From assembly GCA_963755915.1 (NCBI GenBank), contig CAVWLP010000002.1, positions 864,001 through 928,000 on the forward strand: 64,000 bases of DNA. Direction: 5' to 3'. The stretch comes from an uncultured Phycisphaerales bacterium. Lineage in GTDB: Bacteria; Planctomycetota; Phycisphaerae; Tepidisphaerales; Tepidisphaeraceae. Below are positions 59,170 through 63,459 of this stretch, in pieces (the first letter of the stretch is position 1; each line of letters begins with the position of its first letter). Under the pieces are notes generated by a model, which saw nothing but the letters and a program-made list of their open reading frames with translations, ran no database searches and was not told where the DNA came from. The position numbers were made by a program, and so were the translations under genes.

Positions 59170-59413
59170 ACAGGGAAGAATAATACAACGAAAATACTAA
59201 TTGTCAAATAAAAAATACAGATAAAATACAGGCAAAATGCTCTTTGGGGCCGTCGCGGCCTCGAAACGAACAGTTTGGCCAGCGGCCATCTCTTCAACTG
59301 TTCGCCAATTTTGGCCCATGCCCCTATTTTGTTCGAGAGTGTCACTTTTTGTAACCTTTTGTCACCTCGTTTCGGCATTTGGCCTTCGGCCTTCGCCGTT
59401 CTAAAATCCCCCC

Positions 59414-60232
59414 ATGCACCCCCTCCGCATCGGCAAATTCGAACTCTCCAGCCGCCTGTTCGTCGGAACGGGCAAATACGCTTCGTACGAGATCATGCAG
59501 GAAGCCCTGGCCGCCAGCGGCTGCCAGGTGGTGACCGTCGCTGTGCGGCGGGAACGGCTGATCGATAAACAGGGGCGGTTGATCCTGGATTTCCTGGACC
59601 TGAGCAAATATGTCATTCTGCCGAACACGGCGGGTTGCTTCAGCGCGGAGGATGCGATCAGGGTGGCGCTGCTGGGGAGGGAACTGCTCGAGAAGCAAAA
59701 GAATCCGGGGGCGAACTGGGTGAAGCTAGAAGTGCTGGGGGATAAGAAGACGCTGTTGCCGGATCCGATGGGATCGCTCGAGGCGACCAAGGAGCTGGTA
59801 AAGGAAGGGTTCACGGTGTTGTGCTACAGCAGCGACGATCCGATCGCGGCCCGGCGGATCAAAGAAGCCGGTGCGGCGAGCGTAATGCCGGCGGGAAGCC
59901 CGATCGGGTCGGGGCAGGGCGTTTTGAATCCGCTGAATATTTCGCTTTGCCTGGAGACGCTGAAGGAGGGGGATAAGAATTATCCGGTGATTGTGGATGC
60001 GGGAGTGGGGACCGCGAGCGATGTGGCCGTGGCGATGGAGTTGGGAGCCGACGGTGTGCTGCTGAATACGGGGGTGGCGCACGCCAAGGATCCGGTGAAG
60101 ATGGCCGGCGCCATGAAGCTGGCGATCGAAGCGGGGAGATTGGCGTTTGAATCGGGGCGAATCGCCAAAAAGCGGTACGCGACGGCGAGCAGCCCGTTTG
60201 ATGGAGTGATCAGCTATATTCCAGGCGAGTGA
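59414..60232 (+). CDS. thiG: Thiazole synthase
   Basis: [48 protein letters not shown]. Confidence 0.96.
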
Positions 60233-60236
60233 GGGC

Positions 60237-61025
60237 GTGACTGAGGATTCGGGCAACAATTCTACTGACGGCCCCCACCCTAACCCTCTCCCCGGAGGAC
60301 TGCGTCCCGCGTACCAGGGGAGGGGAGAAGAGTTGTGGCGGAAGTTGGCCGATAAGGCGGGGGTAACTCTTGGGGCTGACCAGATCTCGAAACTTCATCG
60401 GTATCTGGATTTGCTGCTCGAAGCCAATCAGCGGATGAATCTCACGCGAATTTCTGATCGCGGGGCGGCGGAGCTTTTGCATGTTGCGGATGCGCTAACG
60501 GTTCTTGGGCATCTGCCGGAGGCGGAGCATCGGCTGGCGGACCTGGGAAGCGGCGGCGGGGTGCCGGGGATTGTGCTGGGAATTGCGCGGCGAAATTGCG
60601 CGGTGACGCTGATCGAATCGACGCGAAAAAAGGCGGATTTTCTCCGCGAGGCGGTGAAGATATTGGGTTTGGAGAATGTGTCGGTAGCGGCAATCCGCGC
60701 CGAGGAGGCGGGGCGAGGGAAGATGCGGGAGGGGTTTGACGTGGTTGTAGCGCGGGCGGTAGGGGTTTTGCCGATCTTAGTCGAGTGGATGCTGCCTCTG
60801 GTGAAGGTTGGGGGCCAGGGTTTGGCGATGAAGGGGCCCAAGGGGCGGGAGGAAGTTGAGCAGACGAAGGGGGCGATAACGGCGCTGGGGGGCGGGAAGG
60901 TGGAGATCGTTTCAGCCGAACTGGAGGGGGCGGAGGGGCACGTGATTGTGAAAATCGGCAAGATACGGCCAACACCGGCCAGGTTTCCGCGGGATGCATC
61001 GATTTCCAAGGGAAAGCCGATATAG
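60237..61025 (+). CDS. rsmG: 16S rRNA m7G527 methyltransferase
   Basis: NQRMNLTRI, HVADAL, DLGSGGGVPG, ESTRKKADFL, RAE, VVARAV, KGP. Confidence 0.92.
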   Translation: MTEDSGNNSTDGPHPNPLPGGLRPAYQGRGEELWRKLADKAGVTLGADQISKLHRYLDLLLEANQRMNLTRISDRGAAELLHVADALTVLGHLPEAEHRLADLGSGGGVPGIVLGIARRNCAVTLIESTRKKADFLREAVKILGLENVSVAAIRAEEAGRGKMREGFDVVVARAVGVLPILVEWMLPLVKVGGQGLAMKGPKGREEVEQTKGAITALGGGKVEIVSAELEGAEGHVIVKIGKIRPTPARFPRDASISKGKPI

Positions 61026-61131
61026 CAGTGGGTCAACTGGGCAATGTATGGATATAATTGGCAGACTGCCCACTGGGCAAGCGCCTCAAGGTTGACGTGC
61101 GCTTTCGAGCCGCCGCCAGGAAAGGTTTTCT

Positions 61132-61848
61132 ATGCTCGTGCTGACCCGCCAGCGAGATCAGATCATCATGATTGGGGATGACGTGGAGATTACCGTGGTT
61201 GATATCCGCGGCGACAAAGTGCGGCTGGGGATCACCGCGCCGATGAGTGTGAAGGTTTATCGGCGTGAGGTTTACGATCAGATTCGCGAGGAGAACCGGG
61301 CCGCGGCGCAGATGGTTCCGGCGGATCTGGTGAACATTCCAGCCACGCCCCCCCCGCCGGCGCCGGTGGCGATCGAGCCGCAGCGGGCGACGTTTCCGCG
61401 ACTGGCGGCCGAGAGCCGCGACCCGTTCATGCAGGCGGCGATTGATGAAGCCTTACTGGGCCTCAGCGAGGGAGGATTGCCGATCGGGTCGGTGCTGGCG
61501 CGCGGAAATCAGATTATCGGGCGCGGACACAATCGCCGCGTGCAGCGCGGGGATCCGATGGCCCATGCGGAGATCGATTGCCTGACGAATGCCGGGCGGC
61601 AGAAGACATATGCGGACACGGTGCTCTATTCGACGCTGATGCCCTGTTTTCTGTGCAGTGGAGCAGTCGTGCAGTTTGGCGTGCCGAGGGTGGTCGTGGG
61701 AGAGAGCGTAAATTTTGGAGGCGGGCCGGAGCTGATGCGCTCGAAGGGAATTGAAGTCGTGGATTTGCACGATCGGGATTGCATTGAAATGATGGGGCAA
61801 TTCATCCGGCAGCATCCGGAGCTTTGGAATGAGGATATCGGGAAGTAA
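61132..61848 (+). CDS. csrA: CsrA (carbon storage regulator) fused to a Zn-dependent cytosine/nucleoside deaminase
   Basis: aa 1-55 MLVLTR...IGDDVEITVVDIRGDKVRLGITAP..V.VYRRE; Pro/Ala linker; DPFMQAAIDEA...PIGSVL...GHNRR...HAE...PCFLC...WNEDIG. Confidence 0.88.
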   Translation: MLVLTRQRDQIIMIGDDVEITVVDIRGDKVRLGITAPMSVKVYRREVYDQIREENRAAAQMVPADLVNIPATPPPPAPVAIEPQRATFPRLAAESRDPFMQAAIDEALLGLSEGGLPIGSVLARGNQIIGRGHNRRVQRGDPMAHAEIDCLTNAGRQKTYADTVLYSTLMPCFLCSGAVVQFGVPRVVVGESVNFGGGPELMRSKGIEVVDLHDRDCIEMMGQFIRQHPELWNEDIGK

Positions 61849-61856
61849 TTAACGTA

Positions 61857-61892
61857 AGCCGGACCGGCCCGGGGACGGGCCGGCTCATTTTC
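61857..61892 (+). terminator. Putative terminator after csrA-deaminase
   Basis: agccgg..ccc...gggccggct hairpin followed by cattttc. Confidence 0.45.
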
Positions 61893-61927
61893 GGGGCAAT
61901 ACGGGATTGGAGATTCGGGGCCGGCAT

Positions 61928-62443
61928 ATGGTGGAGTTGCCCCCACAAAGTCGCATTTCGCTACGCGTGGACCGCGAGGGGATGACCATCGTTATTCCAA
62001 AGCCGATGGGGAAATCGAAGGGTAGCTGGGGGCTGGCGGCAATCGCAGCGTTTCTCACCGTTTCGTTTATCGTTCAGGGGCTTCTCAGCGGCAACCAGGC
62101 GTGGACAGGCGTGGGCCTGCTCTGCTTCATCGTAACGGCCTGGCAGCTCATGGCGCTGTGCGGACTGGCGGCAAGGGAGGATCAGACAAAATTGCAGGTT
62201 ACCGGCGAATATCTGGTGAGATTCGCGGGCCCGGCGGATAGCCCGCAGCGGACCGACTGGCAACGGGTGAAGGTATCGGAGCTGAGGGTCGAGAAGGAAT
62301 CAGAATCCAATCGCACCGGGCTGCGAATGCATTTCAAGGATAAGCAGGCGCCGGCGTGGCTGGTCATGGATGGGGATTCGCAGGAGCTGGACTGGGTGGC
62401 GGAGCAGATTCGTAAGAAATGGGGGATGGGAGGGGCGGTTTAA
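61928..62443 (+). CDS. Two-TM hypothetical protein
   Basis: Two TMs then a PH-like beta-rich C-terminus (tentative). Confidence 0.6.
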   Translation: MVELPPQSRISLRVDREGMTIVIPKPMGKSKGSWGLAAIAAFLTVSFIVQGLLSGNQAWTGVGLLCFIVTAWQLMALCGLAAREDQTKLQVTGEYLVRFAGPADSPQRTDWQRVKVSELRVEKESESNRTGLRMHFKDKQAPAWLVMDGDSQELDWVAEQIRKKWGMGGAV

Positions 62444-62532
62444 TTTAATCCGCGGCAAACAATCTGACCCTACCTTACCATTCGAACACCCAATAGAGGG
62501 CATTGGAGGCAATCGTGAACCAAAGGACTTCA

Positions 62533-63459
62533 ATGCGGTTCGTCACTGGCTCGACAAGCCTTTTCAATGAATTCGCTTTAATATTGGGCGGACTCGCGGC
62601 AGCAATCCTTCTTCCTGCCTCCGCGCGTGGCCAAATCTTCGCCAGCAACACCGCCCTCGGGACAATTGGTGAATACACCACGTCGGGAGTCCCAATAAAT
62701 CCCTCACTGATAACGGGGCTTGACGGCGCGGGAGCCATTGTCGCCTCTGGGTCGGACCTGTACTTCGTAACCAATAGCGGCACAACTGTCGACAAATACA
62801 CGACATCGGGGACCATCGTGCAGACCTTCAATGTTAACGGGTTGTCAGCAATATCCGGAATTGCAGTCTCCGGGTCTGATCTGTTCGTCGCGGAATCCCT
62901 CGGCGCCATCCTCGAGTATACCACTTCGGGAGTCCTCCTCAACCCATCGCTGGCCGTTTCGAGCGATCCTTCCAGCATCGCCGTATCCGGATCCGACCTG
63001 TATGTGACGAATCTGTTTGCCGGCACGATCAGCGAATACACAACCTCCGGAACCTCAGTAAACCCCTCACTTGTTTCCGGGCTGGACGATCCCTACGACA
63101 TTGCCGCACCGGGTTCGGATTTGTTTGTTCTCAACGAAGGAAGCGACACGATCAGCGAATTCAATACCTCGGGAGATCCCGTCGATACCGACCTGGTTTC
63201 GGGCCTCGATGGATCGGGTGGAATAGCCGTATCCGGATCCGGCCTGTTCTACGCAAGCTTTGCCGGCGGAACGATCAACCAGTACACCACGTCCGGGGAT
63301 CCCGTCGCGGCGCCTCTGATCTCTGGCCTGCCAGGGGTGCAGGACATCGCGGTTGTGCCCGAGCCAGCGATCGGATCAATCCTCCTGACCAGCGCCGTTG
63401 GAATCGTGATGCGCCGAGCGCCACAAGTTGGCCAGGGTTGCGAACGCCGCTTCAGATGA
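62533..63459 (+). CDS. PEP-CTERM protein with about 40-aa beta-propeller-like repeats
   Basis: Signal peptide; about 6 repeats of GTIxEYTTSG...SLxxGL..GIAVSGSDLxV; VPEP + TM + RR. Confidence 0.88.
   Translation: MRFVTGSTSLFNEFALILGGLAAAILLPASARGQIFASNTALGTIGEYTTSGVPINPSLITGLDGAGAIVASGSDLYFVTNSGTTVDKYTTSGTIVQTFNVNGLSAISGIAVSGSDLFVAESLGAILEYTTSGVLLNPSLAVSSDPSSIAVSGSDLYVTNLFAGTISEYTTSGTSVNPSLVSGLDDPYDIAAPGSDLFVLNEGSDTISEFNTSGDPVDTDLVSGLDGSGGIAVSGSGLFYASFAGGTINQYTTSGDPVAAPLISGLPGVQDIAVVPEPAIGSILLTSAVGIVMRRAPQVGQGCERRFR

What the first reader, a model, noticed from the sequence alone, without database searches (positions are those of the whole stretch)
61132..61848. CsrA RNA-binding regulator fused in frame to an intact Zn-dependent deaminase
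Seen: a complete CsrA domain (MLVLTR and VYRRE, with the RNA-contacting arginines), a Pro/Ala linker of about 40 aa, and a full deaminase with HAE and PCxxC Zn ligands. The deaminase begins ...SRDPFMQAAI with no start codon or RBS just before DPF. Neither alternative frame has a stop between the C8 run (61348-61355) and the deaminase start; the nearest is TGA at 61443, inside it. This argues for a real fusion. Known: CsrA dimers bind GGA motifs in mRNA leaders, and related deaminase folds (TadA, APOBEC) edit RNA. Inference: this could be a GGA-targeted RNA editor, or a translational regulator whose activity is coupled to nucleobase metabolism. Caveat: the GHN and C-terminal WNEDIG motifs resemble yeast FCY1-type free-cytosine deaminases, whose C-terminal lid closes over a free base, so a metabolite-sensing role may be as likely as editing.
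Basis: partly seen in the sequence, partly recalled or inferred. Interest (0 to 1): 0.86.

Follow-up and report, generated by a model that had tools for sequence, protein, structure and literature searches.

The report
CsrA regulator fused to cytosine deaminase
This is a real, evolutionarily conserved gene in one family of planctomycete bacteria that joins a small RNA-binding translation regulator (CsrA) to an enzyme that converts free cytosine to uracil; it is almost certainly not an RNA editor, but some relatives keep the enzyme part after it has lost catalysis, so that part probably also serves the regulator.

Summary
The 238-aa ORF at 61132-61848 is exactly as described. It has a CsrA domain (1-55), a disordered Ala/Pro linker (56-96) and a complete zinc deaminase (97-238).

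The fusion is real. All 120 best database hits carry both domains. 47 of 141 genomes of the window's family hold an intact copy. None of 337 genomes from other families of the class does. Both domains are under strong purifying selection (dN/dS about 0.06; linker 0.34).

The deaminase is the yeast FCY1 type. It matches end to end at E 7e-39, keeps all 11 base-contact and lid positions, and models at 1.6 A rmsd. That means a closed pocket for free cytosine, so GGA-guided RNA editing is unlikely.

The CsrA half is a faster-evolving paralog of the genome's FliW-partnered CsrA.

New here: 10 of 187 fused proteins have lost the zinc ligands or catalytic Glu, and 19 have lost the lid, yet all keep CsrA intact. 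A dead domain still folds confidently. This points to a non-catalytic role for the deaminase fold. No publication on the architecture was found. The mechanism is inferred, not shown.

The parts
61132..61848 (+). Whole fused ORF, 238 aa plus stop (csrA-cytosine deaminase)
   Evidence: the ORF listing. Both Pfam domains lie in one frame. All 120 best homologues share the architecture.
61132..61296 (+). CsrA RNA-binding domain, residues 1-55
   Evidence: PF02599 1-53, E 1.7e-22. NCBIfam CsrA equivalogs are above cut-off. L2, L4, R6, V40, V42, R44 and V47 are present. I14, R44 and N55 are invariant in 53 fused sequences. dN/dS is 0.066.
61297..61419 (+). Ala/Pro-rich linker, residues 56-96, containing the C8 run at 61348-61355. 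Its first ~15 residues continue the C-terminal extension shared with the FliW-type paralog.
   Evidence: pLDDT is below 50 for residues 75-94. Length in relatives varies from 14 to 53 residues and is shorter still in G096. dN/dS is 0.34. Similarity to the paralog runs to residue 74.
61420..61845 (+). FCY1-type zinc cytosine deaminase domain, residues 97-238
   Evidence: Yeast cytosine deaminase matches at E 7e-39 over 98-238, reaching the chain's last residue. Foldseek top hits are yCD at rmsd 1.6 A over 144 columns and 47% identity. pLDDT is about 80-96. dN/dS is 0.058.
61564..61572 (+). HAE motif (His145 zinc ligand, Glu147 catalytic; yCD His62 and Glu64)
   Evidence: Read from the sequence and mapped to yCD through the alignments. 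Invariant in 53 fused sequences.
61642..61656 (+). PCFLC motif (Cys172 and Cys175 zinc ligands; yCD Cys91 and Cys94)
   Evidence: Read from the sequence and mapped. P171, C172 and C175 are invariant.
61816..61845 (+). C-terminal lid helix with W232, D235 and I236 (yCD Trp152, Asp155, Ile156)
   Evidence: Helix 229-235 in the model. W232, E234, D235, I236 and G237 are invariant. The roles of the yCD residues come from passages of PMC11000218.
61118..61125 (+). Shine-Dalgarno-like AGGAAAGG, 6 nt before the ATG. It holds the only consistently placed GGA of the leader.
   Evidence: Read from the sequence. A comparable cAGGAagg sits before the ATG in most orthologues. It cannot be told apart from an ordinary ribosome-binding site.
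61053..61058 (+). TATAAT box, a candidate -10 element of the gene's own promoter
   Evidence: Read from the sequence. A TATAAT or close variant lies roughly 10-75 nt before the start codon in most of the 29 orthologous upstream regions printed. The consensus scan reported no full -35/-10 pair here.
61864..61883 (+). Terminator-like GC hairpin (8 GC pairs) followed by a T-rich tail, 16 nt after the stop codon
   Evidence: scan_promoters_terminators. The scan found 2 terminator-like sites in the region against a mean of 3.3 in shuffles, so the scan alone carries no statistical weight.
60237..61025 (+). rsmG (gidB), the conserved upstream neighbour
   Evidence: PF02527, E 8.5e-45. rsmG lies upstream in 26 of 37 fused loci fetched.
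59414..60232 (+). thiG, the second conserved upstream neighbour
   Evidence: PF05690, E 1.5e-98. The order thiG-rsmG-fusion holds across the genus and in several other genera. A promoter-like site lies at 59379-59407.

Best explanation
SHOWN. One polypeptide carries three parts:
1. A CsrA-type RNA-binding domain. It is a faster-evolving paralog of the genome's FliW-partnered CsrA.
2. A disordered Ala/Pro linker whose length varies between relatives.
3. A complete FCY1-type zinc deaminase. Its pocket residues and lid are those that enclose free cytosine in the yeast enzyme.

The fusion is confined, among the genomes searched, to one family of the class. Two database hits are named Tepidisphaeraceae by NCBI. 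It usually sits after thiG-rsmG.

INFERRED.
- The gene arose when a duplicated csrA was joined in frame to a resident stand-alone cytosine deaminase gene.
- The protein is bifunctional. The C-terminal half deaminates free cytosine to uracil for salvage through the genome's UPRTase. It appears to be this genome's only cytosine deaminase.
- The N-terminal half binds GGA-containing mRNA leaders as a CsrA dimer.
- The deaminase fold is itself a homodimer in yeast. Here it also acts as a permanent structural partner of this CsrA paralog, either as a second dimerising or scaffolding module or as a bulky appendage that changes how the paralog assembles on RNA or meets FliW.
- That non-catalytic role would explain why some lineages keep the fold after catalysis is lost.

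The window's protein does not edit RNA.
For: Real fusion:
- All 120 best hits have both Pfam domains.
- 186 further fused proteins were collected.
- 47 of 141 family genomes hold an intact copy: 44, plus G081 and G094 and G096.
- 0 of 337 genomes from other families of the class hold one.
- Linker length varies but is always in frame.
- dN/dS is 0.066 for CsrA, 0.058 for the deaminase and 0.34 for the linker.

Free-cytosine enzyme:
- yCD matches at E 7e-39, end to end.
- All 11 yCD pocket and lid positions are identical.
- The model superposes on yCD at 1.6 A.
- TadA falls below its cut-off.
- A UPRTase is present.
- It is the only FCY1-type hit in the genome at E <= 1e-30.

Origin:
- Stand-alone orthologues, 72-76% identical, start at M-DPF in sister genera G016 and G024.
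- G096's fusion still holds an internal HMDPF.
- G050's stand-alone gene sits directly after rsmG, like the fusions.

CsrA paralogy:
- fliW lies next to the other csrA.
- The two CsrAs are 65% identical over residues 1-74.
- I14 and N55 are invariant in the fused family. These are residues needed for FliW action in B. subtilis (passages of bioRxiv 10.1101/2020.07.02.184341).
- The fused domain is 72% identical across 10 genomes, against 98% for the stand-alone CsrA (median; fused lower in 45 of 45 pairs).

Non-catalytic role:
- 10 of 187 fused proteins lack zinc ligands or the catalytic Glu, and 19 lack Asn51, Asp155 and the lid tail. All have intact CsrA residues.
- G141, G142 and G050 carry such a degenerate copy beside an intact stand-alone deaminase.
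- The dead domain of P0328 models at pLDDT 94-98 and still resembles yCD best.
Against: - No experiment or RNA data bear on function.
- A docking test of the deaminase domain on a CsrA dimer gave no verdict (see Tried and rejected), so no interface is known.
- Within the coherent dead group, the deaminase-like domain is no better conserved than the linker (60-82% against 69-86%), so constraint on it may be weak.
- Several dead forms are single sequences from contigs of about 1-3 kb and could be decaying genes.
- The confident fold of the dead domain is helped by active homologues in its alignment.
- 52 family genomes manage with a stand-alone deaminase alone and 38 with none at E <= 1e-30, so the fusion is dispensable.
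- Both gene trees are poorly resolved. Fused and stand-alone deaminases interleave, so one origin is allowed but not shown.
- The proportions of the three classes are biased, because they come from the best-hit lists of three searches.
- Dimerisation of either half is taken from the known families and was not tested.
Confidence: 0.5

Rival explanations
1. Metabolite-responsive regulator. Binding of cytosine or uracil, and closure of the lid, in the deaminase domain changes RNA binding by the attached CsrA domain. Translation of GGA-leader mRNAs would then follow pyrimidine availability. The logic resembles PyrR, an RNA-binding attenuation protein that is also a uracil phosphoribosyltransferase (recalled, from no call).
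For: - The two domains are covalently coupled and both are under strong purifying selection.
- The yCD lid opens and closes around the ligand (passages of PMC11000218; abstract start of PMC10095239 in the listing).
- A coherent subfamily of 19 proteins keeps the zinc centre but changes Asn51 to Asp and Phe114 to Tyr and drops the lid tail. Retuned ligand binding would look like this.
Against: - The linker is disordered, varies several-fold in length and evolves fast, which makes it a poor conduit for allostery.
- The 10 dead forms have lost the ligand-contact residues as well as the zinc site, so they cannot sense cytosine the same way, yet they persist.
- No interdomain contact is known.
Confidence: 0.2
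2. Fusion without functional coupling. Two independently acting proteins happen to be joined, giving equal dosage or co-expression at most. The catalytically dead forms are genes on their way to loss.
For: - The flexible linker has no conserved core.
- Fused and stand-alone deaminases interleave on the tree, and closely related species differ in state: G081 is fused and G079 is not, within one genus.
- Many family members lack the fusion.
- The dead domains evolve fast.
Against: - At least 10 distinct dead and 19 lidless proteins keep about 130-140 residues of open frame behind an intact CsrA.
- The four members of the 220-aa dead group have diverged 18-40% in that domain without a truncation.
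- That domain models as a confident fold.
- Genomes with a degenerate fused copy keep it beside a working stand-alone enzyme. Nothing explains that if the domain had no role.
Confidence: 0.24
3. One reading: a GGA-guided RNA editor. CsrA docks on GGA motifs and the deaminase converts nearby C (or A) in the RNA.
For: - The fold is shared with TadA and APOBEC.
- Pfam's MafB19-like deaminase model also matches (67 bits, cut-off 27).
- An RNA-binding domain is attached.
- The lidless class of relatives would have a more open pocket. The window's protein is not of that class.
Against: - The domain is the FCY1 type end to end (E 7e-39 against 1.5e-17 for TadA).
- The TadA equivalog scores 72 bits against a cut-off of 150.
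- All 11 pocket and lid positions equal yCD's. These include Asp155, Phe114, Trp152 and the C-terminal lid, which bind and gate the free base.
- Stand-alone orthologues with the same pocket are common across the class without any RNA-binding domain.
Confidence: 0.04
4. Assembly or frameshift artefact. Separate csrA and deaminase genes were merged by an indel in the C8 run.
For: - The assembly has 3 contigs with 81% completeness and 8% contamination.
- Other few-contig assemblies show frameshifted copies: G007, G128, G143, G154.
- No independent contig bridges the C8 run.
Against: - The same architecture occurs in 186 other proteins from many sources, with linkers of different length and sequence.
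- There is no stop in the alternative frames and no conserved start for a separate deaminase.
- The errors seen in other assemblies break the fusion. They do not create it.
Confidence: 0.01

Closest known systems
Yeast cytosine deaminase FCY1/yCD (PDB 1uaq, 1p6o, 1ysd; CDA-fold zinc enzyme acting on free cytosine and 5-fluorocytosine)
   Same: - 47% identity over the whole domain, up to the last residue.
- HxE and PCxxC zinc site.
- Asn51, Asp155, Phe114, Trp152, Ile33, Leu88 and Ile156 equivalents, and the C-terminal lid helix.
- Modelled fold within 1.6 A.
   Different: It carries an N-terminal CsrA domain and a 41-residue linker. yCD and the bacterial stand-alone orthologues have neither.
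FliW-partnered CsrA of the Bacillus/Geobacillus type (PDB 5dmb; flagellin translational repressor)
   Same: - 5dmb_D is the best CsrA structure match (E 1.2e-14).
- The RNA-binding residues, I14 and N55 are conserved.
- It shares the post-helix extension with the genome's own fliW-linked csrA.
   Different: - It is not next to fliW.
- It evolves much faster than the fliW-linked copy.
- Its C-terminus continues into an enzyme and does not end after the extension.
- FliW binding is untested.
PyrR of Bacillus (an RNA-binding attenuation protein that is also a uracil phosphoribosyltransferase); recalled, from no call
   Same: One polypeptide combines mRNA binding with a pyrimidine-salvage enzyme activity, so it is a precedent for linking pyrimidine status to gene expression.
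   Different: PyrR is a single PRTase-fold domain that does both jobs. This protein is two separate, unrelated domains on a flexible linker, and no regulation of pyrimidine genes is shown.
TadA and ADAT tRNA adenosine deaminases (RNA-editing members of the same fold)
   Same: CDA fold with HxE and PCxxC. These are the second-best structural and sequence matches.
   Different: They score far lower (1.5e-17; below the NCBIfam cut-off). TadA has no FCY1-type C-terminal lid closing over the base. The match to TadA ends near residue 192-203.
Fungal FCY1-FUR1-like deaminase-UPRTase fusions and other fused FCY1-type relatives found here (P0189 UPRTase, P0124 cupin, P0214 radical SAM, P0234 MptE-like)
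   Same: They show that this deaminase is a frequent fusion partner.
   Different: Those partners are enzymes or small-molecule-binding domains. CsrA is an RNA-binding regulator.

Membership tests
CsrA/RsmA family (PF02599; TIGR00202) | Profile match above the curated cut-off over the whole domain | tested here: met
   PF02599 1-53 of 53, 79.5 bits against 27. NF002469 82.4 against 73 and TIGR00202 73.2 against 70.1.
CsrA/RsmA family (PF02599; TIGR00202) | RNA-contact residues of strands 1 and 5 (E. coli L2, L4, R6, V40, V42, R44, I47; the list is recalled from the mutagenesis literature, from no call) | tested here: met
   The window has L2, L4, R6, V40, V42, R44 and V47. Position 7 is Q, followed by R8. 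R44 is invariant and L2, L4, R6 and V42 are at least 90% conserved in 53 fused sequences.
CsrA/RsmA family (PF02599; TIGR00202) | Interdigitated homodimer that binds GGA motifs | not testable with these tools
   The monomer model has low pLDDT in the CsrA part (43-75), as expected for an obligate domain-swapped dimer. No dimer was modelled and no RNA binding can be measured.
FliW-antagonised CsrA subgroup | CsrA residues needed for FliW binding or inhibition (B. subtilis N55, I14, D41) | tested here: inconclusive
   I14 and N55 are invariant. Position 41 is Lys here and Ser in the genome's own fliW-linked CsrA. The numbering is assumed collinear with B. subtilis.
FliW-antagonised CsrA subgroup | Gene adjacent to fliW | tested here: not met
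   The only fliW (C3:636611-636961) lies beside the other csrA (C3:636292-636447). The fused gene's neighbours are rsmG and an unknown 178-aa ORF.
FCY1-type (yeast-type) cytosine deaminase, EC 3.5.4.1 | Zinc site His-x-Glu ... Pro-Cys-x-x-Cys | tested here: met
   H145, E147, C172 and C175, invariant in the family.
FCY1-type (yeast-type) cytosine deaminase, EC 3.5.4.1 | Base-contact and gate residues Asn51, Asp155, Phe114, Trp152, plus Ile33, Leu88 and Ile156 (recalled) | tested here: met
   11 of 11 positions are identical (INHELCCFWDI). The same exact string occurs in 28 of 29 stand-alone relatives and 28 of 30 other intact fusions tabulated.
FCY1-type (yeast-type) cytosine deaminase, EC 3.5.4.1 | C-terminal lid helix, with the alignment reaching the last residue of yCD | tested here: met
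   Query 98-238 aligns to yCD 16-161 of 161. Helices 215-227 and 229-235 are in the model. rmsd is 1.6 A over 144 columns.
FCY1-type (yeast-type) cytosine deaminase, EC 3.5.4.1 | Activity on free cytosine and not on nucleosides | not testable with these tools
   Needs an enzyme assay.
tRNA adenosine deaminase TadA (NF008113) | Equivalog profile above cut-off | tested here: not met
   72.3 bits against a cut-off of 150, and the match covers only residues 96-192.
Nucleic-acid-mutating or toxin deaminases (MafB19-like, Bd3614-like, APOBEC-like Pfam models) | Best and specific match to such a model | tested here: not met
   MafB19-deam scores 67.1 bits, above its cut-off of 27 but below dCMP_cyt_deam_1. 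The same model also hit 27 of the 28 deaminase-bearing relatives scanned. Bd3614-deam scores 20 against 38.5. No APOBEC model is listed for the window protein.

The most novel reading that the evidence does not exclude
The deaminase fold has been recruited as a built-in control module of a CsrA paralog. In the intact form, cytosine or uracil occupancy and lid closure, or competition with FliW at the adjacent N55 extension, would set how much GGA-leader mRNA is repressed. That would tie translation, possibly of motility or surface genes, to pyrimidine salvage. The lidless and zinc-less relatives would then be specialised pseudoenzyme versions of the same switch. This would be the first CsrA regulated by a covalently attached enzyme or pseudoenzyme, and not by sponge RNAs or a separate protein antagonist.
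Probability: 0.2. Interest if true: 0.8.

Novelty: new variant of a known kind. Interest (0 to 1): 0.55.

Why it matters
CsrA proteins are known as small stand-alone dimers whose activity is set by decoy RNAs or by separate proteins such as FliW. This study found a lineage in which a CsrA paralog has stayed welded to a metabolic enzyme across dozens of genera. In some members only the enzyme's shell survives. That offers a natural experiment on how an RNA-binding regulator can be modulated or scaffolded by an attached domain, and a clear case of an enzyme turning into a pseudoenzyme inside a regulator.

Practically, the result corrects two kinds of database label. NCBI names these proteins only 'CsrA', and JGI names them only 'cytosine/creatinine deaminase'. 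It also removes an attractive but unlikely RNA-editor reading. If the coupling to pyrimidine status proves real, it would be a new input into the Csr network.

Tried and rejected
1. Read-level check of the C8 run. The best holders share only 27-35% of the sampled words. Only contigs of 141-414 bases were laid. One ends at 61351 and the next begins at 61386, so nothing bridges 61352-61385. This is inconclusive. Contigs from one RNA library, 88-95% alike and so from a relative, cover parts of both domains. They do not cover the linker and do not show transcription.

2. Complex prediction of two CsrA domains plus one deaminase domain. The result was no answer (score 0.01, mark 0.32), which is neither support nor evidence against binding.

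3. Deaminase-domain tree. The careful search did not finish. In the quick tree of 66 rows and 149 columns, 40 of 63 inner branches are open. Five frameshifted or partial copies were left out (L020, L020b, L044, L045, L046). The tree cannot tell one fusion event from several, or gain from loss.

4. CsrA-domain tree. With 75 columns, 41 of 53 branches are open. It is uninformative on monophyly.

5. Separate csrA next to the stand-alone deaminases. None was found within about 3 kb in 26 loci. This rejects the idea that the stand-alone genes are split fusions.

6. Open frames of 228-411 aa at CsrA hits in G019, G032 and G035. These are ordinary short csrA genes at the end of long stop-free stretches, not fusions.

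7. Leader GGA motifs as a sign of autoregulation. The only conserved GGA is the ribosome-binding site, so the test cannot discriminate.

8. NCS1 cytosine permease (PF02133): not found in an 81%-complete genome.

9. NCBIfam NF005748: nothing near the cut-off (22 against 438 bits). I recalled this model as an amidohydrolase-type cytosine deaminase, but the tool did not print its name, so the result carries low weight.

10. Earlier notes of this scan were not open.

11. Literature. Four searches and a term look-up in PMC7366521 found no description of a CsrA-deaminase protein. Subscription journals and paper supplements were not searchable.
Full report
**Observation**

The window holds one ATG-started ORF at 61132-61848 (+) of 238 aa.
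- Pfam finds a complete CsrA domain at residues 1-53 (E 1.7e-22) and a cytidine/deoxycytidylate deaminase zinc-binding region at 96-190 (E 8.7e-20).
- Two NCBIfam CsrA equivalogs pass their cut-offs, while the TadA equivalog does not (72 against 150 bits).
The linker 56-96 has 10 Ala and 9 Pro in 41 residues. The C8 run is at 61348-61355. Neither alternative frame has a stop between the run and 61443.
- An ATG encodes residue 100, just after DPF. No ribosome-binding run precedes it, and the family consensus there is Leu.

**Is the fusion real?**

Yes.
- A search of 5.8 billion proteins returned 7952 hits among 8000 scored candidates. The 120 best all carry both Pfam domains, at 63-97% identity over 95-100% of the query. 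NCBI names two of them 'carbon storage regulator CsrA [Tepidisphaeraceae bacterium]', and JGI names many 'cytosine/creatinine deaminase'.
- In an alignment of these 120 with the query, both domains are highly conserved and the linker is not.
- Nine fused genes of the genus were compared pairwise: 30 pairs usable for each domain and 21 for the linker. dN/dS is 0.066 for CsrA, 0.058 for the deaminase and 0.34 for the linker. dS is high in many pairs, but the closest pairs give the same picture.
- An AlphaFold2 model gives pLDDT of about 80-96 for the deaminase and below 50 for residues 75-94. The CsrA part scores low as a monomer, as expected for an interdigitated dimer.
- The one check that failed is the read-level one: no laid contig bridges 61352-61385.

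**Distribution**

In the 141 species genomes of the window's family (G000 included), 103 have a match at E <= 1e-30.
- 44 of these matches run from residue 1 to residue 230 or beyond.
- On inspection, G081 and G094 and G096 are also fused. Their CsrA and deaminase matches had been reported separately because the linkers are short.
- Of the other 14 ambiguous long open frames inspected, all are stand-alone genes.
- That gives 47 intact fusions in 141 genomes. One of them, G014, is flagged unpublished; without it the count is 46 of 140.
- Four more genomes (G007, G128, G143, G154) have frameshifted copies, and all four are few-contig assemblies.
- 52 genomes have only a stand-alone FCY1-type gene, counting three partial matches (G021, G122, G149). 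38 have no match at that threshold.

In a sample of 401 genomes of the class, none of the 337 from other families has a match starting before residue 55, although stand-alone FCY1-type genes are common. At 50% clustering of 1.8 billion proteins, only four full-length fused clusters appear among the best 150.

**What the deaminase is**

Against all PDB sequences, the best matches are yeast cytosine deaminase chains (E 7e-39). They align query 98-238 to the last residue of the enzyme. TadA follows at 1.5e-17 and matches only to about residue 200. Foldseek ranks yCD first, at rmsd 1.6 A over 144 columns and 47% identity.

I mapped eleven yCD positions onto the query through these alignments: Ile33, Asn51, His62, Glu64, Leu88, Cys91, Cys94, Phe114, Trp152, Asp155 and Ile156. 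All eleven are identical. Passages of PMC11000218 state that the ligand is held by Glu64, Asn51, Asp155, Gly63 and the zinc. They also state that release passes Phe114, Trp152 and the C-terminal lid 153-158. The roles of Ile33, Leu88 and Ile156 are recalled.

This is the signature of an enzyme that encloses a free base, and it leaves little room for a polynucleotide substrate. The genome has a UPRTase to use the uracil. It has no other FCY1-type gene at E <= 1e-30.

**What the CsrA half is**

The genome has two further CsrA genes. One lies directly downstream of the only fliW.
- That stand-alone CsrA is 65% identical to the fused domain over residues 1-74. This stretch includes the post-helix extension.
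- The best CsrA structure match is the Geobacillus FliW-bound CsrA, 5dmb.
- I14 and N55 are invariant in 53 fused sequences. Passages of bioRxiv 10.1101/2020.07.02.184341 report that B. subtilis needs I14 for FliW inhibition and N55 for FliW binding.
- Across the same ten genomes, the stand-alone CsrA is 98% identical (median) while the fused domain is 72% identical. The fused domain is lower in 45 of 45 pairs.

So the fused copy is an extra, faster-evolving paralog.

**Origin and context**

- Stand-alone orthologues in sister genera are 72-76% identical, and those of G016 and G024 begin at M-DPF.
- G096's fusion keeps an internal HMDPF behind a linker of about eight residues.
- No csrA lies within about 3 kb of 26 stand-alone genes.
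- rsmG lies upstream in 26 of 37 fused loci, often preceded by thiG (identities confirmed). It also lies upstream of two stand-alone genes, directly so in G050.
- A TATAAT box precedes most fused genes, and a GC hairpin follows this one.
- The gene trees are too weakly resolved to count events.

**Degenerate relatives**

Three distant fused clusters (P0128, P0133, P0141) have lost the zinc ligands and catalytic Glu but keep CsrA. I classified all 187 fused proteins in hand:
- 153 have the full eleven-residue signature.
- 19 keep the zinc centre but have Asn51 to Asp, mostly Phe114 to Tyr, and in 17 of the 19 a C-terminus ending right after Trp152.
- 10 lack zinc ligands or the Glu.
- 5 are other single variants or fragments.

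Apart from two partial sequences, all keep the CsrA contact residues. These proportions are biased by how the proteins were collected.

In the genomes:
- G141 and G083 carry zinc-deficient fused copies.
- G142 carries a lid-deficient one.
- G050 carries a dead one whose CsrA lies in a neighbouring frame.
- G141, G142 and G050 also have an intact stand-alone deaminase. G083, which is 72% complete, does not.

A 220-aa dead group (P0327, P0328, P0330, P0331) is 91-95% identical in CsrA, 69-86% in the linker and 60-82% in the dead domain. The P0328 model gives pLDDT 94-98 over the domain core, lacks the lid helix and still resembles yCD best. One caveat applies: active homologues are in its alignment.

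**Interpretation**

That the protein is a CsrA joined to a free-cytosine deaminase I hold at above 0.9.

How the two halves cooperate is inferred. Long-term retention of a folded but dead or lidless deaminase on an intact CsrA, beside a working stand-alone enzyme, argues that the fold does something for CsrA. The variable, disordered linker and the loss of ligand contacts in the dead forms favour a structural or assembly role over ligand-driven allostery. The fast evolution of the dead domains keeps 'no coupling' alive.

RNA editing is unlikely for the window's protein. The lidless class is the only place where a more open pocket could be looked for.

**Novelty**

Four full-text searches and a look-up in a comparative CsrA paper found no description of this architecture. 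Subscription journals and supplements were not covered. Databases already hold these proteins, but under one-domain names.

Noticed in passing
Proteins P0339 and P0341: CsrA is also found fused to a GNAT acetyltransferase domain (244-246 aa; precomputed Pfam PF00583 plus PF02599). This is a second enzyme-CsrA architecture in metagenome proteins.
   Followed up: no
Proteins P0240, P0252 and P0265: These proteins have two CsrA domains in tandem (141-240 aa; two PF02599 stretches each). They may be single-chain versions of the CsrA dimer.
   Followed up: no
Proteins P0124, P0189, P0214 and P0234: Close FCY1-type deaminases are fused to a cupin, a UPRTase, a radical-SAM domain or an MptE-like kinase domain. 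Many others have N-terminal extensions of 40-250 residues with no Pfam match.
   Followed up: partly
Proteins P0271-P0313 (19 listed): This is a coherent subfamily of fused proteins with an intact zinc site but Asn51 to Asp. Most also have Phe114 to Tyr, and 17 of the 19 have a C-terminus that stops after Trp152 (ending ..AWKK). It could be an enzyme with another substrate or a more open pocket.
   Followed up: partly
G007:C5, G128:C3, G143:C1, G154:C7 and G050:C4 (loci L020, L045, L044, L046, L057): The fused gene is frameshifted in assemblies of 1-8 contigs. The break falls in the linker in G154, near the two domain ends in G128, G143 and G007, and between overlapping frames in G050. This pattern fits indel errors of long-read assemblies in GC-rich homopolymer stretches. 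G000 itself has 3 contigs but only 81% completeness.
   Followed up: partly
window 62503-63459 (+): This 318-aa ORF is made of repeated '...YTTSG...' units and has a weak Vgb_lyase (beta-propeller) match below cut-off. Its C-terminus reads VPEP followed by a hydrophobic stretch and RR. From memory that resembles a PEP-CTERM sorting signal.
   Followed up: no
window 61907-62443 (+); loci L005-L012, L020, L023: The 178-aa ORF just downstream has no Pfam match. It is conserved next to the fusion throughout the genus at 38-95% identity, and weakly in G136. Its sequence suggests two membrane-spanning segments.
   Followed up: partly
G000:C2:1451469-1451642 (-), locus L003: A third, divergent CsrA paralog (E 4e-12) has an insertion in the strand 2-3 region. 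Its context was not examined.
   Followed up: no
Loci L090-L103 (stand-alone csrA of the family): The FliW-type CsrA is almost invariant across genera of the family over residues 1-58 (93-100% in the ten genomes compared). The similarity continues into the extension ..AAAQVKPEDLSGxGK. That is unusually strong conservation for a tail presumed to be flexible.
   Followed up: partly
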